Shown piece by piece: positions 6,157-52,388 of a stretch of 64,000 bases of DNA. Position 1 is the stretch's first letter; every line of letters begins with the position of its first letter. Source of the stretch: an uncultured Acidobacteriaceae bacterium (lineage in GTDB: Bacteria; Acidobacteriota; Terriglobia; Terriglobales; Acidobacteriaceae); NCBI GenBank assembly GCA_963745725.1, contig CAVUYJ010000002.1, positions 21,964 through 85,963 of the forward strand. Direction: 5' to 3'. The translations under genes and the position numbers were made by a program. The notes below the pieces were generated by a model. The model had not been told where the DNA came from, made no database searches, and saw only the letters and a list, made by a program, of their open reading frames with translations.

Positions 6157-7355
6157 GAATCTACACGGAATCGAGCGAAGAGACCCTGCGTGCCCGCAAT
6201 CTCCTGACGCAGTGGACCGTCGACGGTTCCCTCAGCAAGGAGCAGTACCAGCGCCTTGAACAGGACACGGTCTCCGGCCTGCGCATCACCAATATCTTTT
6301 TGAGGCTGGTACTTTTCCTCTTCACCATGATCGGCGTAGTCGCCGCAGTCGCGCTCTTCTTCACCATCTTTCTTTCGCGGCCGTCGCAACCAACCATAGG
6401 CATAGTCCTATTGATCTTCGCTGCTGTCTCCTACACGGCCTCCGAGGTCGCCGTAACCCAGGCCCGTCTGTATCGCTACGGGATCGAGGAAGCACTCGCC
6501 GTCTGTTCGGTCGCTTTACTGTGCGTAGGACTGGACCTCTTTTTTTTCAGTGGCACGCCCCACTCCTCGCGCGAAATTCAGTCTGTGGTTCCCGCCGTTG
6601 GCGCCATTGCTTCGCTCTGGATCTGGTACCGATTCAACCTGTGGTACGCATTTCCCGCCGCGATGATCTTCGCCATCTTCCTGCCCGGCTACTGGACGCC
6701 ATCCCACTCGGCGCAGCATGTTTTCATCTCAGTGTTGTATGCAGCCGGACTGATCTGTATAGCCCCCGTTCGCTCCCGCCACCGCTTCGATTACCTTGAA
6801 GATGCGTACTCGCTCTCTGAGGCGTTTCTATGGCTCGGAATATACCTGATCGTCAACCTCAAGATTTCAGCTTTGAGCTTGCCCTCACAGTGGTGGAGCA
6901 ACCCGCGGGCCGCCGCAGAATTCGCTGTCCCGTTCTACTGGACGACGTGGGTGCTCATATGGTGCCTGCCGCCCCTCATACTCGCACGCGGCGTTCGCCA
7001 GAAGGATCGCCTCATCATCGCGGTCGGCGCGATTACTACCGTCCTCACCCTTGTCACCAACAAACCGTACCTCGGCTGGCAGCGGCATACCTGGGACCCG
7101 ATACTTCTCGGTATAGCACTCACTGGCGTTGCATTGTTCCTTCGACGCTGGCTCGCTCTGGGTCCGGGCGGAGTTCGCCACGGCTTTACGGCCGCGCGTC
7201 TGTCGGGGAAGGACAAACACGCGATGAGCGTCGGCTCTGCCGTACTCGGCCTGGTAACGCCTCAATCCATAACGCCAACCCCGCAACCAACCAATCCAGA
7301 CGGTCGGTTTGGCGGAGGAGGATCGGGAGGCGGAGGCGCTAGCGGCGATTTTTAA
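6153..7355 (+). CDS. multi-pass membrane protein with Gly-rich C-terminal tail
   Basis: 400-aa ORF with a GTG start overlapping the upstream stop (GTGA). Same layout as the upstream gene (soluble N-term, then many TM segments). Ends ...RFGGGGSGGGGASGDF. Confidence 0.6.
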   Translation: MRIYTESSEETLRARNLLTQWTVDGSLSKEQYQRLEQDTVSGLRITNIFLRLVLFLFTMIGVVAAVALFFTIFLSRPSQPTIGIVLLIFAAVSYTASEVAVTQARLYRYGIEEALAVCSVALLCVGLDLFFFSGTPHSSREIQSVVPAVGAIASLWIWYRFNLWYAFPAAMIFAIFLPGYWTPSHSAQHVFISVLYAAGLICIAPVRSRHRFDYLEDAYSLSEAFLWLGIYLIVNLKISALSLPSQWWSNPRAAAEFAVPFYWTTWVLIWCLPPLILARGVRQKDRLIIAVGAITTVLTLVTNKPYLGWQRHTWDPILLGIALTGVALFLRRWLALGPGGVRHGFTAARLSGKDKHAMSVGSAVLGLVTPQSITPTPQPTNPDGRFGGGGSGGGGASGDF

Positions 7356-7485: not shown

Positions 7486-7519
7486 CGGCGTGAGCGATGG
7501 CGCTGTGCGTTAACGTCGA

Positions 7520-8044
7520 GTTACATCAGATCGGTTGCGTGCAGAACTTGCAGCGCGTGGCTGTGATGGGAACCAACGACTTGCACTGGACACAGGTTTT
7601 TTCTGTAGGATCCGCTACCGGAGGTTTTCCCTTGAGCTGCCTCATGACGTAGTTCATGGGCACCACAATGACGAAGTACACGACGGCTGCTTGCAGCAAG
7701 AACGAGATCACGGAGTTGAGAAAGATGCCGTAGTTGATCTTGCCGCCATGGATGTAAAGCACGAGCGCAGAGAAGTCCGGCTTGCCAACCAGGGATGCAA
7801 TGAGCGGGGTGAGGACGTTCGTTACAAATGATGTGACGATTGCGGTGAATGCAGCGCCGATGATCACTGCGACAGCGAGGTCAATTACATTGCCACGCAT
7901 GATGAAATCACGGAAACCTTTGATCATTTCGTTCTCCTCGTTGGTGTGGAATCTTGAGTCGGGAAACGCAACAGCACTGTCCTTACCGCTTGAGTATGAT
8001 CCGTTGAGTCCTCAACCGGCTGGGTGCGTCTACATGCGGAAGTG
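7520..8044. repeat. segmental duplication, copy A left arm (matches 15271-15795)
   Basis: Direct comparison gives about 9 mismatches in 525 nt. Only 2 of them are inside mscL. Confidence 0.9.
7526..7927 (-). CDS. mscL: large-conductance mechanosensitive channel MscL with C-terminal CxxC-x10-CxxC ribbon (copy A)
   Basis: 133 aa. MIKGFRDFIMRGNVIDLAVAVIIGAAFTAIV is the canonical MscL N-terminus/TM1. A second TM follows, then ...EKTCVQCKSLVPITATRCKFCTQPI. Confidence 0.9.
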   Translation of the reverse strand: MIKGFRDFIMRGNVIDLAVAVIIGAAFTAIVTSFVTNVLTPLIASLVGKPDFSALVLYIHGGKINYGIFLNSVISFLLQAAVVYFVIVVPMNYVMRQLKGKPPVADPTEKTCVQCKSLVPITATRCKFCTQPI

Positions 8045-8185
8045 ACCATAATGCAACCGTACCTGAACGTGTTACTCCGTCGCGCTCTCCTTTAGTGCCA
8101 ATTCCGTCTGACCACGAGACCCCTGGTTTGTTTGCCAACGGGAGTCAGGCCGCATGGCCTCGCCACGCGAACTCTGCCCGTCCAA

Positions 8186-9172
8186 CTAACCGCTTGACGA
8201 CATTGGTTCGCGCTCAGGACGTTGACCGGAGCACCCGTGGACAAGCGCGTTGAGGAACCAGAACGACGGGTCGGTCCAAGGGGCTGTGAGCGCCGCGTAC
8301 TCCTCTTCCCGCGCCTTCGTCAGCACACAATCAGCTTGCTCCCATCCGCGGATGGCCTCCAGGGTCGCCTGCCACCACCGCGCCCACGGGCTGCCCCCGC
8401 GAACGACACAAGCAGTGGCCTCGTCGCGGATATTGACTAGACCGCAGCGCTCGAATAGCACCGGGAGCTTGCGACCAAACCTGGGGTCATACCCGCGTGA
8501 TACCCACCACTCGCCACCCTGGTAAGCGCCTTGGTAGCGGGCGTAGTACGGATGAGAAGGATCCACGGGAGCAATCGTGCCCCAGTCACCGTCCTCATCG
8601 ACGAGCCATCCTCCTGGTCGCAAACACTCCACCATGCGTCGGATAGCCGATTCCTGCTTGCCCGCGAGCCAGAACAACATCAAACGCGAACAAACCAGAT
8701 CGAACGAACCCGGGTCTAAGGCGTCTAATGGATCGTCGAGGATGTTGTGCTGACGCACCTCGAGGTTCGGAAGATTCAGTCGCTTCAGGTAGGTAACATC
8801 GATGTCGGTCGCCACCACTTGGCCGCTCTCTCCGACTCGCTCGGCTAGCCAAACGGCCATGGATCCCCGGCCCGCGCCGATCTCAAGGCATCGCCAGCCA
8901 GGCTGGACCAACTGACGTCGTCTGCGAGAGAGCGGGTCGAAGATCTCTTCCAGGAGACCCAACCGATCGTCTTCGGCCTGTTGGCGCCCCCTTGCGTCGA
9001 GCCGGTAACCGGGCTCCGGACCCAGAGCTTCAGTGCCTCTGGAGGAGCCCTCGCGTTCTACCATTGCGCAACCATACTCAGTGACTTTCCCAGCGTCAAG
9101 GTGCGGCGGGAACTTCGGCACGGGGACAGGAAGTTCATCCTGATGCTTTGGTACCGCTACCATATGCGCCAT
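8186..9172 (-). CDS. class I SAM-dependent methyltransferase
   Basis: Track ORF 8186..9232. Motif I is CLEIGAGRGSMAVWLAERVGESGQVVATDID. Start taken at Met21 (9172), but 9163 and 9232 are also possible. Confidence 0.75.
   Translation of the reverse strand: MAHMVAVPKHQDELPVPVPKFPPHLDAGKVTEYGCAMVEREGSSRGTEALGPEPGYRLDARGRQQAEDDRLGLLEEIFDPLSRRRRQLVQPGWRCLEIGAGRGSMAVWLAERVGESGQVVATDIDVTYLKRLNLPNLEVRQHNILDDPLDALDPGSFDLVCSRLMLFWLAGKQESAIRRMVECLRPGGWLVDEDGDWGTIAPVDPSHPYYARYQGAYQGGEWWVSRGYDPRFGRKLPVLFERCGLVNIRDEATACVVRGGSPWARWWQATLEAIRGWEQADCVLTKAREEEYAALTAPWTDPSFWFLNALVHGCSGQRPEREPMSSSG
8849..9108. repeat. segmental duplication, copy A right arm (matches 15796-16056)
   Basis: About 95% identical to copy B. 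Copy B lacks A coordinates 8045-8848. Confidence 0.85.
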
Positions 9173-9530
9173 GGCTTCGCTTATAAAGTCGCTGCGGACC
9201 GCGGGACTTTCGGTATGTGCAATTCTTCTCACGCTTGGACTTGCGCTTTGCGCCCAACATGCTTACTTGTACGGCCAGGACAAGTCTGGATTTCCAGATG
9301 GCCGCGACGCTGTTCAGGCCGCAGCAGGTAGTCACAAAGTCGTATTTGAGAACGCGTTCATTCGCACCGTCTATGTCACCCTGCCCCCGGCTGGCTCATC
9401 CGAACCCATGCACACCCACCGTTGGCCTAGTGTATTCCTAAGGTACGAATTCGTTCTCGACCACCCGCACGTGGCGTCGAGGTTTCTATCGCTCCCCTGC
9501 GTTTGCAGCAGAACCCTTCGCAGCGGATGA
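9171..9530 (+). pseudogene. possible truncated secreted cupin-like protein
   Basis: Signal-peptide-like N-terminus (LSVCAILLTLGLALCAQ) and the segment KVVFENAFIRTVYVTLPPAGSSEPMHTHRWPSV resemble small cupin proteins. The sequence then degenerates and overlaps the 3' end of the yihY-family gene. No other frame continues it. Confidence 0.3.
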
Positions 9531-10388
9531 ATCGGCGCGCCCGGTTTCAGCTTTTTGAATCTCGGAGTTCATTTCGCCCCCGATCAGTAGGGCTCCGTTG
9601 CTGGCATAGAGCCACAGCAGAAGCATCACGACTCCGTTCAATGGTCCATAACTGCGAGCGTAGTCGTTTATGTGATCGAAGTAGATGTGCGCGGCGAAGG
9701 TGGAGGCGAGCCACAGAATCAGCGCGCAGACTGCGCCGGGTGTGCTCCAGCGCAGTGCGTGGGGGCGGAGGCAGGGTGCAAAGCGATAAAGCACCACCAG
9801 GAAGAACGAGAGCGAGACCGACAGGGTTAGCCATTCCAGGGCTCGGAGGAAGAGCGTGCCGCCATGAAAATGAGCCTGCAGATAAGCGCTGCAGAAAATA
9901 AGCAGCAGTGCGATCGCGGCAGTCACCGCCATGCAGGCAGTCAGGACGACGATGGTAACCGTCAGGTTCCACCAGGAGCGCTGCTCCTCGACCTCGTAGG
10001 CGCGGTTGAGACCATAAATCATGGCCCAGGTGCCGTTATGCGCGGCCCACACAGCTGCGGCGCATACCGAAAGAAGTCGAAGACCGAAACGAGGACGCTC
10101 GCTGAAGTTGCTAAACATTCCCTGAAAGAGCTGCGAAACCCGAGTGGGGAATAACTGAGCGCAGAGGTCGCGGAGCGAGCCCTTGAGATGATCGCTGAGA
10201 TCAGGAAGGTGTGTGACCAGGATGAAACCAACCAGAAGAGAGGGAAAGATCGCCAGAAACTGGTAGAACGCCATGCGTCCGCCTTGCCCGAAAACCTCGT
10301 CCCGCCAGGATTCCCGGATGGTACGGCGAAGCAGCTCCGGGATGGAGAGACTGCCGAGCGTCCAAAGCTTGGGTATGCGATTCTGCAC
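9486..10388 (-). CDS. YihY/virulence factor BrkB family membrane protein
   Basis: 300 aa, 6 TM segments. Family-typical stretches are GGRMAFYQFLAIFPSLL and FFLVVLYRFAP...W.TPGAV. Confidence 0.85.
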   Translation of the reverse strand: MQNRIPKLWTLGSLSIPELLRRTIRESWRDEVFGQGGRMAFYQFLAIFPSLLVGFILVTHLPDLSDHLKGSLRDLCAQLFPTRVSQLFQGMFSNFSERPRFGLRLLSVCAAAVWAAHNGTWAMIYGLNRAYEVEEQRSWWNLTVTIVVLTACMAVTAAIALLLIFCSAYLQAHFHGGTLFLRALEWLTLSVSLSFFLVVLYRFAPCLRPHALRWSTPGAVCALILWLASTFAAHIYFDHINDYARSYGPLNGVVMLLLWLYASNGALLIGGEMNSEIQKAETGRADSSAAKGSAANAGER

Positions 10389-10600
10389 CTGGTGTCAGTT
10401 TAGGGCAAACGACGTCGACTCCATGATTGATCTTGAATTCAGGAAAGCACCCCTGACGCTCGACGCGGCGAATACCAGCATCAGCGGTAATTTTTCGTTA
10501 AAAGGACTGGGCAACTGTGCTGCTCCGCGCGAACCTGGCGGCCAGCTCGATTCCTGCGAACAGTTACGGAGAACTGGCTCTGACGGTGGTGGCACCCGGG

Positions 10601-11228
10601 CCAAACCCGAAAGTAACCTCTGGCCTTGTACCCCTGTGCCGAAAAGAATCGTCCAGCCATTTACATCTAACTCGGAAAAGCTTTATCTCTTAAGGTAGAC
10701 GATATCGGCAGGCGACGGCTCCTCACGCAACCGCGCCCTGGCCGGCAGTTGCCTGCAGTTTCGGCCTTCCGCGTGAGCCAAGGATAGTTTCACCACTATC
10801 CGGTGTCTCAACCTATCCCTGTCACAAATAACCAACAACAGCCACGGTTGCCTACCGCGGTTCTCAACCCTTTCCGTCACGAACACAGCAGCAGACAAAA
10901 TCATCCCAATCTCCAGCAAACCGAGGAACGAGACGACCTATGCCCAAAAAAAACTGCCTGCCCGCGGTGCCGCAGGTCACCGATCCCATCACCGATCAGG
11001 AAATCGCCTTTGCTCACCTGATCCTTTCCCGAACCAAACCAGCCCTCTCAATCCCTATCAAGCCCGAAGCCCTGAACCGCGTTCCCGCCGCAACCGGCAT
11101 GATTTTTGACGCCGTCCTGGATAGAGCCAACCCCATCAGGCTGTCCTTCTCCCCAAACGGACGCTTCTCTGGGCGGCGGCGCTGAAGCCATAAAAAGACC
11201 AAATTTTATCGAATTTTATGAAATATCG
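10601..11228 (-). repeat. conserved intergenic element, copy 1 (candidate structured sRNA), interrupted by a 291-nt insert at 10890-11180
   Basis: 10601-10889 and 11181-11228 align with 21101-21424 at roughly 85-90% by eye. Strand assigned from GNRA loop and G-U wobble arguments (see findings). Confidence 0.6.
10940..11185 (+). CDS. hypothetical 81-aa ORF inside the insert (doubtful)
   Basis: A GAGGAACGAG box lies upstream of the ATG. The stop codon is supplied by the flanking repeat, so this may be a gene fragment. No family recognised. Confidence 0.25.
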   Translation: MPKKNCLPAVPQVTDPITDQEIAFAHLILSRTKPALSIPIKPEALNRVPAATGMIFDAVLDRANPIRLSFSPNGRFSGRRR

Positions 11229-15120: not shown

Positions 15121-15270
15121 CTGTGTATAAACAGTATATACACCGGTCGGTGTGATTCCGTCAACCTGTTTTGTTCGCTTCAATACAGTGCCTACTCTTT
15201 GCCCGATCAGAGCCTGCTGTAACGTCAATTGGCATTCTGGGAGGAGCCTGTATGAGGTGAGCCAAAACGG

Positions 15271-16056
15271 GTTACATCAGATCGGTTGCGTGCAGAACCT
15301 GCAGCGCGTGGCTGTGATGGGAACCAACGACTTGCACTGGACACAGGTTTTTTCTGTAGGATCCGCTACCGGAGGTTTTCCCTTGAGCTGCCTCATGACG
15401 TAGTTCATGGGCACCACAATGACGAAGTACACGACGGCTGCTTGCAGCAAGAACGAGATCACGGAGTTGAGAAAGATGCCGTAGTTGATCTTGCCGCCAT
15501 GGATGTAAAGCACGAGCGCAGAGAAGTCCGGCTTGCCAACCAGGGATGCAATGAGCGGGGTGAGGACGTTCGTTACAAATGATGTGACGATTGCGGTGAA
15601 TGCAGCGCCGATGATCACTGCGACAGCGAGGTCAATTACATTGCCACGCATGATGAAATCACGGAAGCCTTTGATCATCTCGTTCTCCTCATTGGTGTGG
15701 AATCTTGAGTCGGGAAACGCAACAGCACTGTCCTTACCGCTAGAGTATGATCCATTGAGTCCTCACCCGGCTGGGCGCGTCTACATGCAGAAGTGCCAAA
15801 CGGCCATGGATCCCCGGCCCGCGCCGATCTCAAGGCATCGCCAGCCAGGCTGGACCAGCTGACGTCGTCTGCGAGAGAGCGGGTCGAAGATCTCTTCCAG
15901 GAGACCCAACCGATCGTCTTCGGCCTGTTGGCGCCCTCTTGCGTCGAGCCGGTAACCTGGCTCGAGACCCAGAGCTTCAGCGGCTCTGGATGTGCCCTCG
16001 CGTTCTACCATGGCGCAACCATACTCACTGACTTTCTCAGCGTCAAGGTACGGAGG
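15271..16056. repeat. segmental duplication, copy B
   Basis: Collinear with 7520-8044 plus 8849-9108. The junction lies between 15795 and 15796. Confidence 0.9.
15277..15678 (-). CDS. mscL: MscL with C-terminal CxxC-x10-CxxC ribbon (copy B)
   Basis: Identical to copy A except K127R and one synonymous change. Confidence 0.9.
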   Translation of the reverse strand: MIKGFRDFIMRGNVIDLAVAVIIGAAFTAIVTSFVTNVLTPLIASLVGKPDFSALVLYIHGGKINYGIFLNSVISFLLQAAVVYFVIVVPMNYVMRQLKGKPPVADPTEKTCVQCKSLVPITATRCRFCTQPI

Positions 16057-16059
16057 CAT
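15781..16059 (-). pseudogene. 5' remnant of the SAM methyltransferase at 8186-9172
   Basis: The 92-aa ORF matches the N-terminal part of the copy-A protein up to ...CLEIGAGRGSMAVW. It then runs into the deletion junction and stops. Confidence 0.75.
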
Positions 16060-16121
16060 GGATGTTCCTTAGCTCCCGCTGAAGAAAATCCAAACCACTC
16101 ACGCGAGAAGAAAAAGCAGTC

Positions 16122-16778
16122 CTACTCGAGCCCTCGTTCGACCATAAGCACCAGGCGTTCGCCCAGCGCAAGCACCGTCGCTTGCGGCATCCGGTGCAGC
16201 GGTCCTTCCAGCACCAGAAGTGCCAGCCCGTGCACTGTCGACCACGCAAGATACTCTGCGTCTTTGCGATTCTTTTTGCTGAGCAAGCCCGATTCCTGCA
16301 TGCGGTCCAGCGCCAGCGAAAGCAGTTGAAACGGATTCAGTCCCATGGATGCCGTGTTCGCCGGGTTTTGCTCATGGACAGCCGGTGGAACCGAGAAAGC
16401 TGTGCGAAACATCCCCGGCTCTCTCATCGCGAATCCCAGATAGCCCATCCCCACCGCACGGAGACTCTTGCGCGCAAACGCTTGCGGATCGCGTCCTGGA
16501 CGGCACTTTTTCATTTCATCTTCAATCGCCGCGGCGAGCTGGGAAAAACATGCCGATCGCACCGCGTCCAGCAGTTCTGCCTGGTTGGCAAAGTGCCGGT
16601 ATGCCGCATTGGGAGAAACACCCGCCTGCCGGGTTGCCTTTCGCAAAATGACTGTATTGGGTCCCCCGATACGCGCCATCTCAATGCCGGCAGCCAGGAG
16701 CGCGTTGCGCAGATCGCCATGACGAAAGGTCTTGCGTTTCGCAAGAGCGCGTTTCTCAAGGCTGACGGTCTTTTTCAT
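16122..16778 (-). CDS. TetR/AcrR-family transcriptional regulator
   Basis: The HTH region is LRKATRQAGVSPNAAYRHFANQAEL. Start taken at the Met at 16778. Confidence 0.85.
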   Translation of the reverse strand: MKKTVSLEKRALAKRKTFRHGDLRNALLAAGIEMARIGGPNTVILRKATRQAGVSPNAAYRHFANQAELLDAVRSACFSQLAAAIEDEMKKCRPGRDPQAFARKSLRAVGMGYLGFAMREPGMFRTAFSVPPAVHEQNPANTASMGLNPFQLLSLALDRMQESGLLSKKNRKDAEYLAWSTVHGLALLVLEGPLHRMPQATVLALGERLVLMVERGLE

Positions 16779-16898
16779 CGTCTGTTCAAAGAAGAGTGTA
16801 CCGCGGAAAGGGTCGCTTGTGGACGCCATCCACTTTCTGATAGTTTCTGTGGACAGTGTTTACATGATAGCGATGCCTCGCTAAAGGGACGGGACAAA

Positions 16899-17678
16899 AT
16901 GGCAGACGGATTCATCTGGTACGAACTCATAACCAATGACATCGACAAGGCAGTCAGCTTCTACAGCAAGGTAGTCGGGTGGGACGTCAAGGATGCCGGT
17001 ATGCCCGGCTTCACCTACATGCTCTTTGGTAAAGACGGCAAGGATGTCGGTGGCATGATGACTTGGACAGGCGCAGGCGCGCCTGACCTTCCCGCTCAGT
17101 GGGTAGGCCACATCCACACCGCAAAGCTGGACGAAGAGCTGAAGGCTGTGACAGCCGATGGCGGCACAATTGCGAAGCCTGCTCAGGACATCCCTGGTGT
17201 CGGCCGTTTCGCTGTTGTCCTGGACCCGCAAAAGGTGAAATACCTGCTCTTCGAACCCGGCAAGCAACGTGCTCAGCCTCGTTTGGATCAAATGGCGGTT
17301 GGGAATGTGGGGTGGCACGAACTGCTTACCGATGATCCAGCAAAGGCTTTCGATTATTACTCCAGGCACTACGGCTGGGAGAAGGATCGTGCGCATGACA
17401 TGGGACCCATGGGCATCTACCAAACTTTCCGCACCGACCAGCCCCTCTATACCGGCGGAATGATGGCTCGTACAGGCCCCGGCATGCCCGAAGGTATTCC
17501 GCCGCACTGGCAGTTCTACTTCACCGTCGACGACATCGAAGCTGCGCAGAAACGTGTGATCGATGCGGGCGGCGAAATAGTGCTACCTCCCATGGACGTC
17601 CCTGGGGGATCGCGCATCCTGCAGGCCACAGACGATCAGGGCGGCCACTTTGCTCTGATGCAGGGACCAAAATCGTAA
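16899..17678 (+). CDS. VOC (glyoxalase/bleomycin-resistance fold) family protein, two-domain
   Basis: Real start MADGFIWYELITNDIDKAVSFYSKVVGW at 16899. A second repeat reads VGWHELLTDDPAKAFDYYSRHYGW. The upstream part of track ORF 16182..17678 is antisense to the TetR gene. Confidence 0.85.
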   Translation: MADGFIWYELITNDIDKAVSFYSKVVGWDVKDAGMPGFTYMLFGKDGKDVGGMMTWTGAGAPDLPAQWVGHIHTAKLDEELKAVTADGGTIAKPAQDIPGVGRFAVVLDPQKVKYLLFEPGKQRAQPRLDQMAVGNVGWHELLTDDPAKAFDYYSRHYGWEKDRAHDMGPMGIYQTFRTDQPLYTGGMMARTGPGMPEGIPPHWQFYFTVDDIEAAQKRVIDAGGEIVLPPMDVPGGSRILQATDDQGGHFALMQGPKS

Positions 17679-17776
17679 CCGCGATGGACCCATGTTCAGT
17701 GCCGCCCTTCTTCGTACACAGAAGAACGGCAGCCGAATATACCTTGGAGTTCGAAAAGCTAAGAGGAGAGAGTGAG

Positions 17777-18262
17777 ATGTCCGAGAAGATGATGACCTGT
17801 CTGTGGTTCGACCATGGGAAAGCCCGCGAGGCGGCCGAATTTTATGCAGCCACGTTCCCCGACAGCCACGTCGGGAAGACTAGCGCCTCACCCACCGCCA
17901 CGCCATCCGGGCCTGAAGGCCAGGAGTTGACCGTTGAGTTCACCGTCTGCGGGCGCAAGTTCCTGGGCCTCAATGGCGGTCCGAACTTCGTCCCCAACGA
18001 AGCGGTCAGCTTCATCCTTCTCACCGAGGACCAAGCCGAGACCGACCGCCTGTGGAACGCCATCGTCAGCAACGGCGGCCGTGAAAGCATGTGCGGGTGG
18101 TGCAAGGATCGCTGGGGTTTTTCGTGGCAGATCACCCCGCGCGCGCTGCTGGCGGCGATGCAGGACCGGGATCGCGCCGCAGCCAAGCGCGCAATGAACG
18201 CGATGATGACGATGCGGAAGATCGACATTGCCACGATCGAGGCTGCGCGCGCGGCACGGTAG
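17777..18262 (+). CDS. VOC-family protein (PhnB / 3-demethylubiquinone methyltransferase-like domain)
   Basis: MSEKMMTCLWFDHGKAREAAEFYAATFPDS ... CGWCKDRWGFSWQI. A GAGGAGAG Shine-Dalgarno box lies 6 nt upstream. Confidence 0.8.
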   Translation: MSEKMMTCLWFDHGKAREAAEFYAATFPDSHVGKTSASPTATPSGPEGQELTVEFTVCGRKFLGLNGGPNFVPNEAVSFILLTEDQAETDRLWNAIVSNGGRESMCGWCKDRWGFSWQITPRALLAAMQDRDRAAAKRAMNAMMTMRKIDIATIEAARAAR

Positions 18263-18580
18263 AGCAGATCGTGACCGAAATTACTCCGGATCACTCAGAG
18301 CGGTCCGGCTATAGGTCATAGGGGATCGAAGGAAGAGATAGCCTGTTCGTGACCGGGCTCAAGCGCGAGCCCCATCCGTGGACCATCGACGCCCCCAAAA
18401 GTCCATATCCAGCCAAGGGGCTCCCGGCGCAGCGCCGCAGTGGATGCGGCAGAAGACCAACCCAAAGATTTACACCAAGATGGATGACTTGCGAAACAAA
18501 GGATTACTATGATTCCGTCGACGCATGCGCAACGCGTCTTCTTCGGCTGAGCGTCGTCCGAATCAATGAGCGGAGGTGGC

Positions 18581-21007
18581 ATGGCAAATCCCCCGTCCGG
18601 AATCCTCGACACGATCCGGAACAAGGAAGCTGTTCTCTTCATCGGTTCGGGCTTTTCCAGGTCGGCGGGATTTCCCTCCTCGGCGTCTATCGCCGCGTTC
18701 CTGATTGGAACGTTGCGCGCCGATGGCAAGTCTATAGATTCCCGTCTGGAACTGGACCGCGTTGCCGAGCTATTTGAACTTACCAATGGCCGGGGTCGTC
18801 TTATTTCCGCGGTGGAATCGTTCCTAAGAACTTCACCCCGTGATGTTCTTAGCCCCAGCCATCGACTCCTGGCCAGCCTGGTGAAACACGGCTTTGTCAA
18901 AACCATCGTTACAACGAACTACGACACTCTGATCGAAGATGCGTGCACAGTGCTGGGCACGACCATCCGAGTCATTGCGCACCCATCGCAACTGTACGCC
19001 GCTGCCGGAGACCAGCCGGTCTTGTACAAGATTCACGGCGATTTCTCCCACCCTGACCTACTCGTCCTTACTCCTAAGGATTTTCAACAATGGAGCCAGG
19101 GACCGGAGACGCGATCGATCGTGACCCAGCTGCAGGCACTCTTCGATCGAAGTGCGCTGCTCTTCCTGGGCTATTCGTTGTCCGATTTCAACATTCTGAC
19201 TCTGCTGTTGGGCTCTGACTTCGCAAGTCGAGGCGCACCGAGGCACAAGCGCTTTTCAGCCATCTATTCCAATGAGGTCCCTGAGGACACCGGCGGCCGG
19301 TTGAGACTGTATGGAGTGGAGGCATTTGCCTGCCCGGACACGGAGCAATTACTGCGATCGCTGCTGCAGAGATTGCCAGTCACGCTGCGCGTGAAGCATC
19401 TTGTTTTCAGCTATCCGTCCTGGTACCCGGACCAGGAGGCCCGCTACGGTGGAATTGAGACCTTTATCCGCTACCTTTCGCAAAATGCAAAAGGCTGCTC
19501 GCACAGCACCTACTATGCAATTTTCGGCAGAATGCTGGAGTTTGAGCCTTCGAACTTGGCGAATACGACTTATCCTACCTACCCCGCCAGCTTCTTCTTC
19601 TTCAGAGCAGCGGCAAAAGCGGCCTTGGAGACGACACTGCACAGTGGCAGTTCCACAACAGATCGCGTGCCCGACGTTGTTCACGTGCATTTCCTCGAGT
19701 TTGCGCCGCTCTCTCAAGAGGCAGGTATCCCGACGCTATGCACCTCTCATAGTCTCTTATCGCTTGATCTCTTTTTTACCAAGGGACTCTTCGACGGCAG
19801 CGAAATGCCCGGAGCACGGCAGGAAGTACGCGTGGCCTATGCATCCGAAAGGAACGCCGCGTCGGAGGTGCGCTTCGTCACAGTTCTTTCGCAGGCTCAT
19901 GAGCAGGAGGTCCGGCGTCTGGGTGCGCGAAGCGTGCGGCGGCTCGATGCTCCATTCGATCCTCGAGAGTTTCCGTTGGAAAGTCCGGAATCGGCCCGGC
20001 GGCGCGCGTATCCAACCCTGAAGGAAAAATTCACCATAACCTACGTCGGTCGTCCCGATCGCCGCAAAGGAATCGAAATCCTGATCAGAGCTTGCGAACT
20101 GCTCGCAGAAGAGACTGTAGATTTTCAATTGCTCTTCGTGGGATACGGTTTCTGGCAGTCAGAACAGCACCTGAATTTTGGCACGGGATGGTTTTCGTTT
20201 GATATCTCGCGACTGCGCGAGAAGGGAATCGAACTCGAATACCGGCGCGGATACGGTCCCCGGGACACACCAGTTTTTTATGCAGCGTCCGATATCGTTG
20301 TCGTTCCCTCCCTTTATGAGCCCATGGGCTATGTTGTTCTAGAGGCGATGGCGAGCTCGCGGCCAGTGGTAGCCGCCCGGACCGGGGGCCTCACTGAGAC
20401 CATCGTCGATGGGATCAATGGAATCCTTTTTGCTTCGGGCGAAGCGGAGGATCTGGCGCAAAAACTGCTCACGCTTTATCGTGACCCCGAGATGAGGAAG
20501 CGACTTGGCGAGCAGGCCTCTAAGGATGTCAATGCCCGGCGGTCCCTCGCCGACGTAGTTCTGGACTGGGAGGAGTTATATCGACAAGCGGCGTTTGCTT
20601 TTGGGGGGTCCTTGTTTCCTCCTCCAGCTCTGGTGGAAGCGATCCGAGAAAGATGTGAGCGGGAAGTGCTCAATTTGAGAGAGGTAGGCGTCTACAGTGC
20701 GGCGCTAATCGGTTGCGAGGTGGCCCGACATCTCATCGCCGAGTCCGGAAAGGAGTTGGAGTTGCCGGAAGGGGTGCCGGTTGACCGTGCGTTGCTCAAT
20801 TCGGTTGCGACGGAACTGCAGAAGGCGCTCCGTCGCAAGGGTCTGGAGACTCCATTTTCCATTGCCGCTCTTGCCGACGTAATGAGCGACCTCGCATTGG
20901 CTCTTCTCAACCGGGAGCGCAATCAGCCCAACTTGGTTCTCCAGGCTGAGGAAACGAAGAAGCGCTTAGATGGGCTCCGGATCGAAGACGCACTCGGGAA
21001 GATATGA
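18581..21007 (+). CDS. SIR2_2-like domain / GT4 (GT-B) glycosyltransferase fusion protein with uncharacterised C-terminal tail
   Basis: Track ORF 18566..21007. Start preferred at 18581 (GGAGGT 3 nt upstream). SIR2 motifs (ORF numbering): VLFIGSGFSRSAGFPS (aa 23-38), TTNYDTLIE (116-124), LYKIHGD (153-159), LLFLGYSLSDFNI (198-210). GT4 motifs: FTITYVGRPDRRKGIE (489-504), VVPSLYEPMGYVVLEAMASSRPVVAARTGGLTETIVDGINGILF (579-622) with E585-x7-E593. Tail aa ~676-813 has no motif. Confidence 0.85.
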   Translation: MANPPSGILDTIRNKEAVLFIGSGFSRSAGFPSSASIAAFLIGTLRADGKSIDSRLELDRVAELFELTNGRGRLISAVESFLRTSPRDVLSPSHRLLASLVKHGFVKTIVTTNYDTLIEDACTVLGTTIRVIAHPSQLYAAAGDQPVLYKIHGDFSHPDLLVLTPKDFQQWSQGPETRSIVTQLQALFDRSALLFLGYSLSDFNILTLLLGSDFASRGAPRHKRFSAIYSNEVPEDTGGRLRLYGVEAFACPDTEQLLRSLLQRLPVTLRVKHLVFSYPSWYPDQEARYGGIETFIRYLSQNAKGCSHSTYYAIFGRMLEFEPSNLANTTYPTYPASFFFFRAAAKAALETTLHSGSSTTDRVPDVVHVHFLEFAPLSQEAGIPTLCTSHSLLSLDLFFTKGLFDGSEMPGARQEVRVAYASERNAASEVRFVTVLSQAHEQEVRRLGARSVRRLDAPFDPREFPLESPESARRRAYPTLKEKFTITYVGRPDRRKGIEILIRACELLAEETVDFQLLFVGYGFWQSEQHLNFGTGWFSFDISRLREKGIELEYRRGYGPRDTPVFYAASDIVVVPSLYEPMGYVVLEAMASSRPVVAARTGGLTETIVDGINGILFASGEAEDLAQKLLTLYRDPEMRKRLGEQASKDVNARRSLADVVLDWEELYRQAAFAFGGSLFPPPALVEAIRERCEREVLNLREVGVYSAALIGCEVARHLIAESGKELELPEGVPVDRALLNSVATELQKALRRKGLETPFSIAALADVMSDLALALLNRERNQPNLVLQAEETKKRLDGLRIEDALGKI

Positions 21008-21100
21008 CGGCGGACATTTCGGGCGGACAGTTGAGCCGAAGTGCCCGGGTACCCACAAAAGCCGTCCTGTCACCCATTTTGTCCCCTGCCAACGCGCATA

Positions 21101-21424
21101 CCAACCAGAAGTAACCCGGGCCTTGTAGCGAAAAAAATCATCTAGCCACTTACATCTAACTCAGAAATGCGTTATCTCTTAGAGTAGACGATATCGGAAG
21201 GCGACGGCTCCTCACGCAACCGCGCCTTGACCGGCAGTTGCCTGCAGCTTCGGCCTTCCGCGTGAGCGAAGGATAGTTTCACCCCTGTCCGGTACTGCAC
21301 CCTACCCCTGTCACAAAATAATCAACGACAGCCACGGCTGCTTGCCGCGGCTCTGCCCCTTCTGTCACTAACACAGCGCTGAAGCCATAAAAAGGCCAAA
21401 TTTTATCGAATTTTATGAAATATC
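21101..21424 (-). repeat. conserved intergenic element, copy 2 (uninterrupted; candidate structured sRNA)
   Basis: Aligns with copy 1. Contains nested hairpins (plus coords ~21212-21266 and ~21332-21350) and the AT-rich box aaattttatcgaattttatgaaatatc at 21398-21424. Confidence 0.6.
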
Positions 21425-22113: not shown

Positions 22114-22797
22114 ATGAAGCAGAGTTTCGCAGCAATCATCCTTGGAGGTACCGGACAAGTCGGCGGTGCAGCCGTCGCGGAACTACTGGCAACTTCAGAA
22201 TGCCGGGAAGTGGTGATGGTCACTAGAAAGCCCATTGCGCCGCGATCGCGGGTGCGCAACGTCGTTCTTGATACCGGCGCTGCGGACTTTGCCGAGCGCA
22301 CTGCCGCCCTTGCCCGCGAAGTTTTGAGCCAAGGCCCCGCCAGCGCCGTCAGCTGTGTGGGTGTCGGTTCCGGATCGAGGCGCTGGAGCGAAGAAGAATT
22401 GCAACGGCTTGAGCTCGGCGTCGTGGGTGCCTTTGCTCGTGGCTGCCATGACGCCGGAATCGCCCAGTTTTGCCTGCTTTCTGCGGTGGGAAGCACAGCT
22501 CGTAGCCGGTTTCGCTATGTGCGAGTCATGGGCATGAAGGAAGACACGGTGCGTCATGTCAGTTTTGCCCGCCTCGCCATATTCCGCCCCGGCATCATTG
22601 TCGGCAACGCTCATACCCCGGCCTGGGCCGGTTGGTTGGGAAGCCTCGTGCCCGGGCCCTTTGGCAATATCGATCAGCGAATTCTCGGTCGCTCCATCGC
22701 CGCAGAGATAGCTTTGCACAGTCGAGATACTGGTGAAGTTACCCGCGAAAATGCAGCCATGAAAAAACTCGCTGCGCAGTTCAATACGGCGCTCTAG
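22114..22797 (+). CDS. NAD(P)H-binding Rossmann-fold oxidoreductase (HTATIP2-like)
   Basis: AIILGGTGQVGGAAVAELL glycine-rich loop, ~227 aa. An AGAGG box lies 8 nt upstream of the ATG at 22114. Confidence 0.7.
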   Translation: MKQSFAAIILGGTGQVGGAAVAELLATSECREVVMVTRKPIAPRSRVRNVVLDTGAADFAERTAALAREVLSQGPASAVSCVGVGSGSRRWSEEELQRLELGVVGAFARGCHDAGIAQFCLLSAVGSTARSRFRYVRVMGMKEDTVRHVSFARLAIFRPGIIVGNAHTPAWAGWLGSLVPGPFGNIDQRILGRSIAAEIALHSRDTGEVTRENAAMKKLAAQFNTAL

Positions 22798-22825
22798 GAA
22801 TGTTTTCAGGGAGCGCATCGGCCTG

Positions 22826-32653: not shown

Positions 32654-33597
32654 CTACATATTCGTGTGCCCGTGGCGCATTTCCTCGTTGAAAGTCGGTT
32701 TCGTCAGGGCGAACGCCTGCTGCAGGCGTTCGCGGAACTCGGCCTCGCGGGCGAGTAGCGCCGGGGTCGCGGCCGCAAACTCCGGGTCGTCCTCGCTCCG
32801 GGTCACCAGGCCGGCGGCGGCGAGCACCGACGCCGCGCGCACCAACTCCTCGGGAGTAGTGTTCAGATATTGCGCATCGCGCGGGTCAGCGATCCAGACC
32901 GGCTCCGACTTGCCCAGCACCCCCGAGAGCCAGAAAGCCTTGGCCAGCAAAAACCCCTGCCGGCTTTCGTCGTCGGTATCGGTGAAGAAGAACTTCTTTT
33001 GCCAGCGGCTGTAATAACGCGTAGTCACCGGTACCGGCTGGCGGTTGCCGCTCTTCAACAGTTCCAGTTGACCCTGGTCCAGGGTCTTGCGAATCGCACT
33101 GTAGATAAAGGATTCCGCGTACGGCTGCTCAGGAGCAGGCACAATCTCCGCAAAGGTCACGGTCATGCTGGCGGAGACCTTCGCGTGCAGCAGGGACTCG
33201 GTGCCGTCGGCGACGTACACCACCCCGTGCACGATATAGGTATCCGCGCCGGAAACAGAGCGGTGAAAGGGCCAACGAAAATCGGCAAACGTGATCGGCA
33301 TGCCGGCCATCGTCACGTAGGCTTCCGGCCGCGGATTGCGCAGGCGTTTGGCCGCATCGCGTAGGTGGGCCGTCATCTCCGGCAACAACTCGGGCCGATG
33401 GAAGTCGAAGTCTTCGCTCAATTCCAGCCGCAGCGTTCGCTCGGTGGGAGCATCTTTGGAAAGACCGATACGGAAGATCGCGGTAGGGCGCCCGTTGAAA
33501 TCAACCCCTTCTTCGGAGGAGAGAACGGTTAAGCCGGCTTGCTTCAGCGGCGTTGCCGACAGCGGTATGCAAAGTGGTAACGGGATTGCTAGGCATG
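32654..33597 (-). CDS. hypothetical protein (N-terminus probably frameshifted near 33530)
   Basis: The track ORF 32654..33421 frame is open upstream without a start codon. An ATG at 33597 (MPSNPVTTLHTAVGNAAEAS) in the adjacent frame would join it. No family recognised. Confidence 0.4.
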
Positions 33598-52374: not shown

Positions 52375-52388
52375 TGCAACGGGAGCCC

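What the first reader, a model, noticed from the sequence alone, without database searches (positions are those of the whole stretch)
18581..21007. Stand-alone SIR2-like / GT4 glycosyltransferase fusion with an unassignable C-terminal tail: candidate new NAD-linked (possibly defence) effector
Seen in sequence: one uninterrupted 808-813 aa ORF. Residues ~20-270 carry the four blocks of the SIR2_2 / DHS-like NAD-binding fold. These are VLFIGSGFSRSAGFPS, TTNYDTLIE (Asn118), LYKIHGD (His157) and LLFLGYSLSDFNI. Residues ~275-675 are a complete GT-B GT4 domain, with FTITYVGRPDRRKGIE and VVPSLYEPMGYVVLEAMASSRPVVAARTGGLTETIVDGINGILF (E585-x7-E593). Residues 676-813 are helical-looking and have no motif I recognise. 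The gene has its own 318-nt upstream region and a strong GGAGGT ribosome-binding site. It is not translationally coupled to any neighbour. Its 3' flank is copy 2 of the repeated element. By eye it is somewhat less GC-rich than its neighbours. Established knowledge: SIR2_2-type domains outside classical sirtuins are the NAD+-depleting effectors of Thoeris ThsA, DSR1/DSR2, SIR2-HerA and SIR2-APAZ/pAgo systems. GT4 enzymes use nucleotide-sugar donors. Inference: I know of no described system that couples the two. The GT domain could sense or modify a nucleotide-sugar or a glycosylated target, or SIR2 could act as an ADP-ribosyl-transfer module feeding the GT. This gene survived intact in an assembly with many frameshifts.
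Basis: partly seen in the sequence, partly recalled or inferred. Interest (0 to 1): 0.8.

Follow-up and report, generated by a model that had tools for sequence, protein, structure and literature searches.

The report
Rare SIR2 NADase–glycosyltransferase fusion protein
This soil acidobacterial gene encodes a very rare three-part protein: an NAD-destroying domain of the type used in anti-phage immunity, an intact sugar-transferring enzyme, and a fast-evolving helical tail with no known relative. It is most likely a new single-gene defence protein, but this has not been tested experimentally.

Summary
There is one intact 808-aa ORF (18581-21007, +). It has a ThsA-type SIR2_2 domain, a complete retaining GT4 (GT-B) domain and a 136-aa helical tail. 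About 29 same-architecture homologues exist, down to 36% identity. Across the 25 aligned, the SIR2 catalytic Asn113/His152 and the GT4 donor-binding and catalytic motifs (GGIET, HVHF, GRPDRRKG, E580-x7-E588) are invariant. The tail evolves fastest. It matches nothing in Pfam, PDB or BFVD, and occurs only in this family (15 hits among 1.84 billion representative proteins).

The family is extremely rare: one locus in 185,579 species genomes and none in IMG/VR. It is also rare in its own Acidobacteriaceae-like lineage. It has no conserved neighbour and is never in a polysaccharide locus. In 10 of 13 annotated contexts, defence, toxin-antitoxin or mobile-element genes lie within 10 kb. In this window the neighbours are ordinary.

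Best reading (about 0.5): a single-gene, abortive-infection-type defence protein whose SIR2 depletes NAD+. GT4 is a second enzymatic effector and the tail is a sensor or oligomerisation module. It is a new variant of the SIR2-effector defence proteins. The only precedent I found is one SIR2+TPR+SAVED+GT4 listing. No function has been tested.

The parts
18581..21007 (+). Complete gene for the 808-aa SIR2_2-GT4-tail protein, stop codon included. An alternative in-frame ATG at 18566 would give 813 aa.
   Evidence: ORF list and translation. The N-terminus at 18581 matches the starts of 24 homologues.
18572..18577 (+). Shine-Dalgarno-like GGAGGT, 3 nt upstream of ATG18581.
   Evidence: Read directly from the sequence.
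18484..18513 (+). Weak sigma-70-like promoter match (ATGACT-18-TATGAT) in the 318-nt upstream gap. It is not above chance.
   Evidence: Consensus scan: 1 site found, 1.2 expected from shuffles.
18581..19375 (+). SIR2_2 (ThsA-type) NAD+-binding and NADase domain, aa 1-265. It contains the GxGxS loop (aa 22-26, nt 18644-18658), catalytic Asn113 (nt 18917-18919) and His152 (nt 19034-19036).
   Evidence: Pfam PF13289, 86.8 bits. PADLOC ThsA1 2.6e-22 over aa 9-208. PDB hits to KomC, ThsA, DSR2 and SIR2-APAZ, with the TTNYD and HG motifs aligned. G22, G24, S26, N113, D115 and H152 are invariant in 25 sequences.
19376..19990 (+). GT4 N-terminal Rossmann-like half, aa 266-470. It holds the invariant GGIET (aa 290-294), HVHF (aa 368-371) and CTSHSL (aa 387-392) motifs. 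A poorly conserved, low-confidence insert spans about aa 300-360.
   Evidence: Pfam PF13439 and PF13579. Alignment invariants. AF2 pLDDT profile. Conservation profile.
19991..20596 (+). GT4 C-terminal (donor-binding) half, aa 471-672. It holds GRPDRRKG (aa 490-497, nt 20048-20071) and E580-x7-E588 (nt 20318-20344).
   Evidence: Pfam PF00534, 107 bits. PDB sequence hits to SPS Tll1590, MshA, TreT and GlgA. Foldseek TM 0.66-0.79 (normalised to target) to 6kih, 3c4q, 6tvp and BshA. R491, K496, E580 and E588 are invariant.
20597..21004 (+). Family-specific C-terminal helical tail, aa 673-808. The core is a four-helix bundle, followed by a less ordered end.
   Evidence: Tail-only AF2 model: pLDDT 81.8, core helices above 90. 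No Pfam hit. No PDB or BFVD fold match. The tail profile finds only 15 representatives among 1.84e9, all the same architecture or fragments. It has the lowest conservation of the four modules: 0.405 against about 0.55.
21109..21424 (+). Copy 2 of an intergenic repeat, starting about 100 nt after the stop codon. Copy 1 lies at 10611-10889 plus 11179-11227. It is not part of the gene and is not found next to homologues.
   Evidence: repeats. (absent from the 10 loci fetched by then, L001-L010). (no Rfam family). (weak fold, z = -1.4 and -1.9).

Best explanation
The gene encodes a cytosolic, single-polypeptide conflict (anti-phage, abortive-infection-type) protein.

Shown:
- The N-terminal domain is a ThsA-class SIR2 with an intact NAD+ pocket and the catalytic Asn/His pair.
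- The middle is a fully intact retaining GT4 glycosyltransferase.
- The C-terminus is a helical bundle unique to this family and the fastest-evolving part.
- The gene is a rare accessory gene without a conserved partner. It frequently sits among defence, TA and mobile-element genes.

Inferred:
- In the resting state the enzyme is held inactive.
- An infection cue is perceived by the C-terminal part (the tail, possibly with the GT4 nucleotide pocket). This drives oligomerisation, as in ThsA, DSR2 and FAM118B.
- Oligomerisation switches on SIR2 NAD+ hydrolysis, which depletes NAD+ and stops phage replication.
- The GT4 domain keeps every catalytic residue. It therefore most likely acts as a second enzymatic effector that uses an NDP-sugar to glycosylate a phage or host molecule, in the 'effector' role predicted for GT4 domains by Kaur et al. 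2021.
For: Architecture and catalytic residues.

SIR2 class: the best PADLOC model is ThsA1 (2.6e-22), then PDC-S25, PDC-S65, Aga-SIR2 and Dsr1. The best PDB sequences are all defence NADases, plus human FAM118B. The nearest SIR2 relatives are proteins of about 640 aa with ThsA-type heads and other C-termini, which indicates module swapping.

Both enzyme domains are under equal constraint: 29, 32 and 36 invariant columns, against 2 in the tail.

The tail is exclusive to this family.

Rarity and patchiness:
- One locus in 185,579 GTDB species genomes.
- 9 true family loci in JGI metagenome contigs.
- A housekeeping gene of the same window (HgmA) has clusters at 85% identity or more holding 864 member sequences. 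The target has only 5 member sequences at 75% or more.

No synteny, no polysaccharide locus, and defence, TA or MGE genes within 10 kb in 10 of 13 annotated contexts:
- A second SIR2_2, a PDC-S31 DUF2971 protein and an RT fragment.
- A CBASS/Pycsar-type TIR effector immediately upstream.
- A SIR2-nSTAND1-patatin operon immediately downstream.
- An NB-ARC STAND protein.
- MazEF plus a transposase.
- A prophage-like region with DNA polA and a resolvase.
- TacAT, Uma2 and an RT.
- A type II MTase, an integrase and IS1595.
- VapC, Transposase_31 and a DUF433/DUF5615 pair.
- A 1228-aa kinase about 5 kb upstream matching PD-T4-6 models. These are generic kinase models, so this is the weakest of the ten.

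Precedent for SIR2 and GT4 in one predicted conflict protein.
Against: - There is no experimental evidence for any family member, and none known to me for any GT4 defence effector.
- In this window the neighbours are ordinary metabolic or transport genes with no PADLOC hit. The same holds for P0018 and L005.
- Composition shows no sign of recent transfer.
- The 'defence neighbourhood' count has no formal background control. Some hits (kinases, RTs, MTases) come from generic models.
- The GT4 domain is not demonstrably of the 'conflict' GT4 clade. PF20706 scores only 29.5 bits over part of the model, and an ordinary GT4 elsewhere in the window scores 46 bits.
- The family is absent from IMG/VR.
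- The signal sensed, the GT4 donor and acceptor, and the oligomeric state are all unknown.
Confidence: 0.5

Rival explanations
1. ThsA-like logic with the GT-B domain as the sensor rather than an effector. In this reading the GT4 nucleotide-sugar pocket replaces the SLOG domain of ThsA. It binds an infection-derived nucleotide, NDP-sugar or ADPR-type ligand, and thereby switches on the SIR2 NADase. Glycosyl transfer itself would be irrelevant or only a by-reaction. The protein is still a defence protein, but the mechanism differs.
For: - The layout is the same as ThsA: an N-terminal SIR2 followed by a Rossmann-like ligand-binding module.
- Foldseek aligns full-length ThsA structures (8btp, 8bto, 7uxt, 8wc0) over 448-518 columns. 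That extends beyond the SIR2 domain into the GT-N Rossmann half.
- The nearest solved GT4s act on small molecules, and at least one (GlgM) uses an ADP-sugar donor, according to my own knowledge of that enzyme.
- One lineage has a TIR-domain gene 200 nt upstream on the same strand.
Against: - All GT4 catalytic residues, not only the ligand-contacting ones, are invariant down to 36% identity.
- The TIR neighbour is confined to one near-identical lineage, L012-L014. It is an effector-type (PycTIR/CAP12) TIR, not a ThsB type.
- The ThsA superposition has a low TM-score (0.42-0.48, normalised to target) and rmsd of 7-12 A. That is generic Rossmann similarity.
- No partner signal-generating gene is conserved.
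Confidence: 0.2
2. A non-defence, bifunctional metabolic or envelope enzyme. The GT4 domain would make a glycoconjugate, glycolipid or compatible solute. The SIR2-like domain would serve as an NAD+-sensing or deacylase-type regulatory module.
For: - JGI annotates members as 'glycosyltransferase involved in cell wall biosynthesis'.
- The nearest solved GT4s are metabolic enzymes: SPS, MshA, GlgM, BshA, TreT.
- The neighbours in this window are metabolic, and the composition is native.
- One lineage has a glycogen-branching-type amylase two genes upstream.
Against: - Homologues are not syntenic and never lie in polysaccharide, glycolipid or thiol-biosynthesis loci.
- The family is extremely rare even within its own well-sampled lineage.
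- All NCBIfam GT4 equivalogs are far below their cut-offs.
- The SIR2 domain is of the SIR2_2/ThsA class. The window protein has no classical sirtuin PF02146 hit, and no Zn-Cys4 module is evident.
Confidence: 0.12
3. Coupled chemistry. SIR2 would act as an ADP-ribosyl-transferase or NAD+ glycohydrolase, and GT4 would glycosylate the ADPR-containing product (or the reverse order). Together they would make a glycosylated NAD-derived small molecule or a doubly modified macromolecule, serving as a signal, a toxin or a modification of a target.
For: - The two catalytic domains are always fused. The three split copies seen are adjacent and overlapping, which fits frameshifts.
- The two domains are equally conserved. 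That fits obligate cooperation.
Against: - No precedent is known to me, and none was found in the literature searches.
- SIR2_2 domains characterised so far in defence are NAD+ hydrolases (established knowledge on ThsA, DSR1/2, SIR2-HerA, SPARSA and KomC).
- Nothing in the sequence points to an ADPR acceptor site in the GT4 domain.
Confidence: 0.08

Closest known systems
Thoeris ThsA (SIR2-SLOG NADase, e.g. Bacillus cereus ThsA, PDB 6lhx/8bto)
   Same: - An N-terminal SIR2_2 domain of the same subclass. The best PADLOC model is ThsA1 (2.6e-22), and PDB E-values are 5e-12 to 1e-8.
- The catalytic Asn and His sit at almost the same positions.
- The SIR2 domain is followed by a Rossmann-like module.
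   Different: - There is no SLOG/STALD domain. The ThsA model matches only positions 14-204 of 478.
- No ThsB/TIR gene lies next to it in the window.
- The C-terminal part is instead a catalytically intact GT4 plus a novel helical tail.
DSR2 / DSR1 (single-gene SIR2 defence proteins with large C-terminal sensor regions)
   Same: - Single-gene organisation.
- An N-terminal SIR2 NADase head followed by a C-terminal non-SIR2 region. By analogy, that region would sense the phage and control oligomerisation.
- The SIR2 domains are homologous.
   Different: - DSR1 and DSR2 are 1000-1250 aa with helical-repeat sensor domains and no second enzyme.
- The similarity here is limited to the SIR2 head.
GT4 'conflict-system' effector domains (Kaur, Iyer, Burroughs & Aravind 2021, eLife, PMC8195603; Pfam PF20706), including one SIR2+TPR+SAVED+GT4 protein (NUQ74496.1)
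   Same: - A GT4 domain fused to conflict-system modules.
- The listed protein has a SIR2 and a GT4 domain in one polypeptide.
   Different: - The listed protein is 1362 aa with TPR and SAVED between the two enzymes. Here the enzymes are directly fused, followed by a novel tail.
- Membership of the target's GT4 in that clade is not shown. PF20706 gives 29.5 bits over positions 170-323 of 385, outscored by generic PF00534 (107 bits). An ordinary GT4 in the same window reaches 46 bits.
- None of these GT4 effectors has been tested experimentally, to my knowledge.
Retaining GT4 enzymes acting on small acceptors (sucrose-phosphate synthase Tll1590 6kih, MshA 3c4q, GlgM 6tvp, BshA 3mbo)
   Same: - The same GT-B fold: TM 0.66-0.79 normalised to the target.
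- The same GG loop, HxH, GRxxxxKG and EX7E motifs.
   Different: - Only about 20% identity.
- No NCBIfam equivalog reaches its cut-off.
- None of these enzymes carries a SIR2 domain or the helical tail.

Membership tests
SIR2_2 / DHS-like NAD-binding superfamily, defence-type NADase class | Significant match to PF13289 and to defence SIR2 models. | tested here: met
   PF13289 scores 86.8 bits against a cut-off of 24.5. PADLOC ThsA1 gives 2.6e-22, with further hits to PDC-S25, PDC-S65, Aga-SIR2, Dsr1 and Dsr2. PDB hits include KomC, ThsA, DSR2 and SIR2-APAZ.
SIR2_2 / DHS-like NAD-binding superfamily, defence-type NADase class | Catalytic Asn and His, and a Gly-rich NAD+ loop, present and conserved. 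| tested here: met
   N113, D115, H152, G22, G24 and S26 are invariant in 25 homologues. They align to the TTNYD and HG motifs of solved NADases.
SIR2_2 / DHS-like NAD-binding superfamily, defence-type NADase class | NAD+ hydrolase activity. | not testable with these tools
   This needs a biochemical assay.
Thoeris ThsA | C-terminal SLOG/STALD ligand-binding domain. | tested here: not met
   The ThsA1 model is matched only at positions 14-204 of 478. Pfam finds GT4 domains instead.
Thoeris ThsA | Adjacent ThsB (TIR) gene. | tested here: not met
   The window neighbours are a glyoxalase-family gene, a 3-dmu-9_3-mt-like gene, DUF4440 and RibD_C, with no PADLOC hits. A TIR gene is adjacent only in lineage L012-L014.
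DSR1/DSR2, SIR2-HerA, SIR2-APAZ/pAgo (SPARSA) | A long helical C-terminal sensor (DSR), an adjacent HerA gene, or an APAZ domain with an adjacent short pAgo gene. | tested here: not met
   PADLOC matches to Dsr1, Dsr2, Aga and pAgo models cover only the SIR2 region. No HerA or pAgo gene lies next to the gene here, or in 13 other contexts.
Classical sirtuin deacylases (PF02146) | Match to PF02146. | tested here: not met
   The window protein has no PF02146 hit at E <= 1. Only two distant homologues show a weak precomputed hit.
Classical sirtuin deacylases (PF02146) | Zn-binding Cys4 module. | not tested
   No explicit search for a Cys4 motif was run. I only noted that none is evident in the translated SIR2 region.
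CAZy GT4 (retaining GT-B glycosyltransferases) | Two Rossmann-like halves matching Glyco_transf_4 and Glycos_transf_1. | tested here: met
   PF13439 scores 28.5 and PF13579 scores 34.2. PF00534 scores 107 bits. Foldseek gives E 3e-17 to 1e-12 and TM up to 0.79 to GT4 structures.
CAZy GT4 (retaining GT-B glycosyltransferases) | Donor-binding and catalytic motifs: GG loop, HxH, R/K pair, EX7E. | tested here: met
   G290/G291, H368/H370, R491/K496 and E580/E588 are invariant. They align with SPS Tll1590.
CAZy GT4 (retaining GT-B glycosyltransferases) | Glycosyl-transfer activity, with donor and acceptor identified. | not testable with these tools
   All NCBIfam equivalogs are far below their cut-offs, so no specificity can be inferred.
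GT4-conflict (PF20706) | A specific, full-length match that outscores generic GT4 models. | tested here: inconclusive
   The score is 29.5 bits (cut-off 26), but it covers only profile positions 170-323 of 385 and is far below PF00534. An ordinary GT4 at 52311-53867 scores 46 bits.
Anti-phage defence system (generic, 'guilt by association') | Patchy distribution and enrichment next to known defence genes or mobile elements. | tested here: inconclusive
   Patchiness is clearly met. Of 13 annotated contexts, 10 have defence, TA or MGE genes within 10 kb. No background control was computed, and the window itself has none.
Anti-phage defence system (generic, 'guilt by association') | Protection against phage on expression. 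| not testable with these tools
   This needs an experiment.

The most novel reading that the evidence does not exclude
The GT-B glycosyltransferase fold has been recruited as the regulatory or ligand-sensing module of a ThsA-like NADase, or the two enzymes are chemically coupled. In the first case, immunity would be triggered by a nucleotide-sugar or ADPR-type metabolite made or consumed during infection, for example by phage DNA-glycosylation pathways. In the second case, the protein would make a glycosylated NAD/ADPR species. Either way this would be the first defence protein in which a glycosyltransferase domain takes part in NAD+-based immunity, with a previously unseen helical tail as a third, fast-evolving specificity module.
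Probability: 0.2. Interest if true: 0.85.

Novelty: new variant of a known kind. Interest (0 to 1): 0.62.

Why it matters
SIR2 NADase effectors are a major arm of bacterial immunity, and they have human relatives (FAM118A/B). Each newly found partner module has revealed a new way in which infection is sensed.

GT4 domains have been predicted to be conflict-system effectors in bacteria and in invertebrate immune proteins. To my knowledge none has been tested. This family is compact: a single 808-aa gene with both enzymes intact and a unique tail. That makes it a tractable entry point for three questions:
- What does a glycosyltransferase do in an immune protein?
- Can NAD+ depletion be coupled to sugar-nucleotide chemistry?
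- What does the novel tail recognise?

The family also shows that very rare, soil-restricted architectures are missing from current defence catalogues. PADLOC recognises only the SIR2 head.

Tried and rejected
- Polysaccharide or cell-wall locus hypothesis. Neighbours in 13 annotated contexts never form such a locus. Rejected as the main reading.
- PF20706 'GT4-conflict' as evidence for defence. Rejected as non-specific: the match is partial, generic GT4s carry it in the precomputed tables, and an ordinary GT4 in the window scores higher.
- Compositional evidence for horizontal transfer. GC, GC3 and codon usage are within the window's range, so there is no support.
- Tail identification. Four approaches found nothing outside the family: Pfam on 21 tails, PDB sequence search, Foldseek against PDB and BFVD on a tail-only AF2 model, and an exhaustive profile search of 1.84e9 representatives.
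- GT4+tail with other N-terminal heads (module swapping). Every strong hit also carries SIR2, or is a fragment or a frameshift-split copy.
- Phage-borne copies. None in IMG/VR.
- A conserved TIR partner (a Thoeris-like pair). A TIR gene is present only in one near-identical lineage.
- The 3' repeat as part of the system. It is absent from the 10 loci fetched when the search was run (L001-L010), has no Rfam family, and its fold is not significant.
- Exact-sequence look-up of the window protein. It is not on record. Taxonomy was therefore inferred from HgmA.
- Literature. Six full-text searches found no description of a SIR2-GT4 fusion. The one related item is the supplementary-table entry.


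Full report
**1. The observation**

The window carries one uninterrupted ORF at 18566..21007 on the + strand. A GGAGGT lies at 18572-18577, 3 nt before ATG18581. Twenty-four homologues begin at the equivalent of that ATG (MxxxPP...), so the product is most likely 808 aa. I use 808-aa numbering below.

Pfam finds:
- SIR2_2 (PF13289, 86.8 bits)
- the two halves of a GT4 enzyme (PF13439/PF13579, and PF00534 at 107 bits)

All reach or exceed their curated cut-offs. NCBIfam gives only generic GT4 similarity, far below every equivalog cut-off. The upstream gap is 318 nt, as stated.

The 3' flank holds copy 2 of a repeat of about 280 nt. The 'lower GC' remark is marginal. The gene is 0.564 GC against 0.580 for the window. 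GC3 and codon usage lie within the spread of 22 other ORFs.

**2. The three modules**

*SIR2 (aa 1-265).*
- The best PADLOC model is ThsA1 (2.6e-22, aa 9-208). It is followed by PDC-S25, PDC-S65, Aga-SIR2, Dsr1 and Dsr2, and all of these match only over the SIR2 head.
- The closest solved sequences are a depositor-named 'NAD-dependent protein deacetylase' (9v0g, the best hit), the defence NADases KomC, ThsA, DSR2 and SIR2-APAZ, and human FAM118B. TTNYD and HG are aligned.
- G22, G24, S26, N113, D115 and H152 are invariant in 25 sequences.
- The nearest non-family relatives are proteins of about 640 aa. They share a ThsA-type SIR2 head (36% identity) but have unrelated C-termini. SIR2 heads are known for this kind of module swapping.

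*GT4 (aa 266-672).*
- Sequence and fold matches are to retaining GT4 enzymes: SPS Tll1590, MshA, GlgM, BshA, TreT and GlgA. TM reaches 0.79 normalised to the target.
- All canonical motifs are invariant: GGIET 290-294, HVHF 368-371, CTSHSL 387-392, GRPDRRKG 490-497 and E580-x7-E588.
- The PF20706 'GT4-conflict' hit (29.5 bits) is partial. It is also non-specific, because an ordinary GT4 at 52311-53867 scores 46 bits.

*Tail (aa 673-808).*
- A tail-only AF2 model is confident (pLDDT 81.8) and shows a four-helix core.
- Nothing matches it in Pfam, in PDB by sequence, or in PDB or BFVD by fold (best E 0.86 and 0.37).
- A profile of 21 tails, searched against 1.84 billion representative proteins, finds only 15 proteins. 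All are the same architecture of about 810-830 aa, or fragments of it.
- The tail is the least conserved module. Mean pairwise identity is 0.405, against 0.54-0.56 for the other three. It has 2 invariant columns, against 29-36.

The full-length AF2 model has pLDDT 77 and pTM 0.71. There is no signal peptide and no convincing transmembrane segment.

**3. The family and its distribution**

About 29 same-architecture proteins were found, from 98% down to 36% identity. With the GT4+tail part alone as query, every strong hit also has SIR2, or is a fragment.

Three split copies (L005, L006, L007) are adjacent, overlapping ORFs in what look like long-read assemblies. They are most simply explained as frameshifts.

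The family is very rare:
- one locus among 185,579 GTDB species representatives, a Planctomycetota MAG
- none in IMG/VR
- 9 true family loci in the JGI metagenome contigs

The window itself is from an Acidobacteriaceae/Terriglobia-like genome, judged by its homogentisate dioxygenase. That housekeeping protein has clusters at 85% identity or more that hold 864 member sequences. The target has only a 98% fragment (2 members) and a 75% cluster (3 members). The gene is therefore an accessory gene that is rare even within its own well-sampled lineage.

**4. Genomic context**

No neighbour is conserved across the family, and no context is a polysaccharide, glycolipid or thiol-biosynthesis locus. I annotated 13 distinct contexts, counting the window.

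| Context | Neighbours within 10 kb |
|---|---|
| L001 | A second SIR2_2 protein (694 aa), a DUF2971 protein matching PDC-S31 (1.8e-30), an RT fragment |
| L012/L014 | A CBASS/Pycsar-type TIR effector 200 nt upstream, same strand (3e-45) |
| L015/L016 | A convergent SIR2_2-nSTAND1-patatin operon immediately downstream |
| L004 | An NB-ARC STAND protein and a kinase-PP2C |
| P0011 contig | MazEF and a DDE transposase |
| L006 | A prophage- or MGE-like stretch: DNA polA, HTH_17, many small ORFs, a resolvase |
| L007 | TacAT, Uma2 and an RT |
| L008 | A type II MTase, an rve integrase, IS1595 4 nt downstream, and a subtilase |
| L010 | VapC, Transposase_31 and a DUF433/DUF5615 pair |
| L003 | A 1228-aa kinase with PD-T4-6-like hits (generic kinase models) |
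| P0018 contig | Ordinary genes |
| L005 | Ordinary genes |
| This window | Ordinary genes, no PADLOC hits |

So 10 of 13 contexts have defence, TA or MGE neighbours. This count has no formal background control. The TIR neighbour is confined to one lineage and is not a conserved partner.

**5. How it most likely works**

Shown:
- a defence-class SIR2 with an intact active site
- an intact GT4
- a unique, faster-evolving tail
- single-gene organisation
- accessory, patchy distribution, often in variable or defence regions

Inferred, by analogy with ThsA, DSR2 and other SIR2 effectors (established knowledge):
- The protein is kept inactive until an infection cue is sensed by its C-terminal part.
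- It then oligomerises, and the SIR2 domain hydrolyses NAD+, aborting the infection.

The GT4 domain keeps all catalytic residues at the same level of constraint as SIR2. I therefore favour an enzymatic, second-effector role. This is the role Kaur et al. 2021 predicted for GT4 domains, and their supplementary table contains one SIR2+TPR+SAVED+GT4 protein.

My confidences:

| Reading | Confidence |
|---|---|
| Defence protein, GT4 as second effector (best explanation) | about 0.5 |
| Defence protein, GT-B domain as ligand sensor replacing SLOG | 0.2 |
| Ordinary bifunctional metabolic enzyme | 0.12 |
| Chemically coupled SIR2/GT reaction | 0.08 |

For the sensor variant, Foldseek aligns ThsA beyond the SIR2 head, but with poor TM.

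**6. Comparison with what is known, and novelty**

The protein works most like the single-gene SIR2 defence proteins, but it is not a member of ThsA, DSR1/2, SIR2-HerA or SPARSA. Their defining partner domains or genes were tested and are absent. It is a bona fide GT4 by sequence, motifs and fold. Membership of the 'conflict GT4' clade is not shown.

PADLOC recognises only the SIR2 head. Six full-text searches found no description of this fusion.

I rate it a new variant of a known kind. It is a real, well-supported and very rare architecture whose function remains to be tested.

**7. Side observations**

The gene lies inside a segmentally duplicated stretch. Blocks at 7517-8044, 8848-9109 and 10611-11227 are colinear with blocks at 15268-16056 and 21109-21424. 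There are two intact mscL copies. The 5-kb interval that differs between the two paralogous stretches holds a glyoxalase-family gene, a 3-dmu-9_3-mt-like gene and the SIR2-GT4 gene. This could be a real rearrangement hot spot or an assembly artefact.

Noticed in passing
window 7517-11227 and 15268-21424: There are colinear paralogous blocks: 7517-8044 ~ 15268-15795 (98%), 8848-9109 ~ 15795-16056 (95%), 10611-10889 ~ 21109-21377 (84%) and 11179-11227 ~ 21376-21424 (98%). Two intact mscL copies exist (7526-7927 and 15277-15678, both on the - strand). The SIR2-GT4 gene sits in the 5-kb interval that differs between the two copies. This is either a segmental duplication with rearrangement or an assembly chimera.
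   Followed up: partly
window 10611-10889 and 21109-21377: An intergenic repeat of about 280 nt occurs in two copies in the same orientation. It has no Rfam family. The predicted fold is not significant on either strand (z = -1.4 and -1.9). It was not found in the 10 homologue loci fetched at the time (L001-L010). Its function is unknown.
   Followed up: partly
L012 3292-4350 (+), also L014 3206-4264 and the edge of L013: In one lineage, a 352-aa protein with a CAP12/Pycsar-type TIR domain lies 200 nt upstream of the SIR2-GT4 gene on the same strand (PF10137 2.7e-27; PADLOC TIR effector 3e-45). It has an uncharacterised C-terminal half of about 135 aa. It could be an independent neighbour or a lineage-specific partner.
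   Followed up: partly
L015 6745-10288 (-), identical in L016: A three-gene operon, SIR2_2 (337 aa) - nSTAND1 NTPase (509 aa) - patatin phospholipase (333 aa), lies convergent to and immediately downstream of a SIR2-GT4 homologue. It looks like a predicted STAND-type conflict system with two effectors.
   Followed up: no
L001 1-9594: Upstream of homologue P0006 lie two very large ORFs (2115 and 1740 aa) with no Pfam hit on record. The 1740-aa ORF also has no PADLOC hit; the 2115-aa ORF was not scanned. They are followed by a 694-aa SIR2_2 protein (PDC-S65-like head) and a DUF2971 protein matching candidate system PDC-S31. This is a probable defence island with uncharacterised giant proteins.
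   Followed up: no
P0030-P0063: A family of proteins of about 640 aa has a ThsA-type SIR2 head (PADLOC ThsA1 1e-30 to 1e-36). About 400 further residues match no PADLOC model, and SIR2_2 is the only precomputed Pfam domain. These are the nearest SIR2 relatives of the target, and possibly another uncatalogued SIR2 effector family.
   Followed up: partly
window 52311-53867 (+): An ordinary 518-aa GT4 glycosyltransferase scores 46 bits on PF20706 'GT4-conflict'. That is higher than the SIR2-fused GT4, so this Pfam model is not specific for conflict systems.
   Followed up: yes
L005 9911-12488, L006 9022-11530, L007 8763-11254: Three homologues are split into two overlapping ORFs (a SIR2 part and a GT part). 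All come from contigs with long-read-style names. They are probably frameshift errors rather than real two-gene versions, but this was not proven.
   Followed up: partly
window 40387-42063 (-), 6153-7355 (+), 32654-33421 (-), 22195-22818 (-): Four sizeable ORFs (558, 400, 255 and 207 aa) have no Pfam match. The last three also have no PADLOC match; the 558-aa ORF was not scanned against PADLOC.
   Followed up: no
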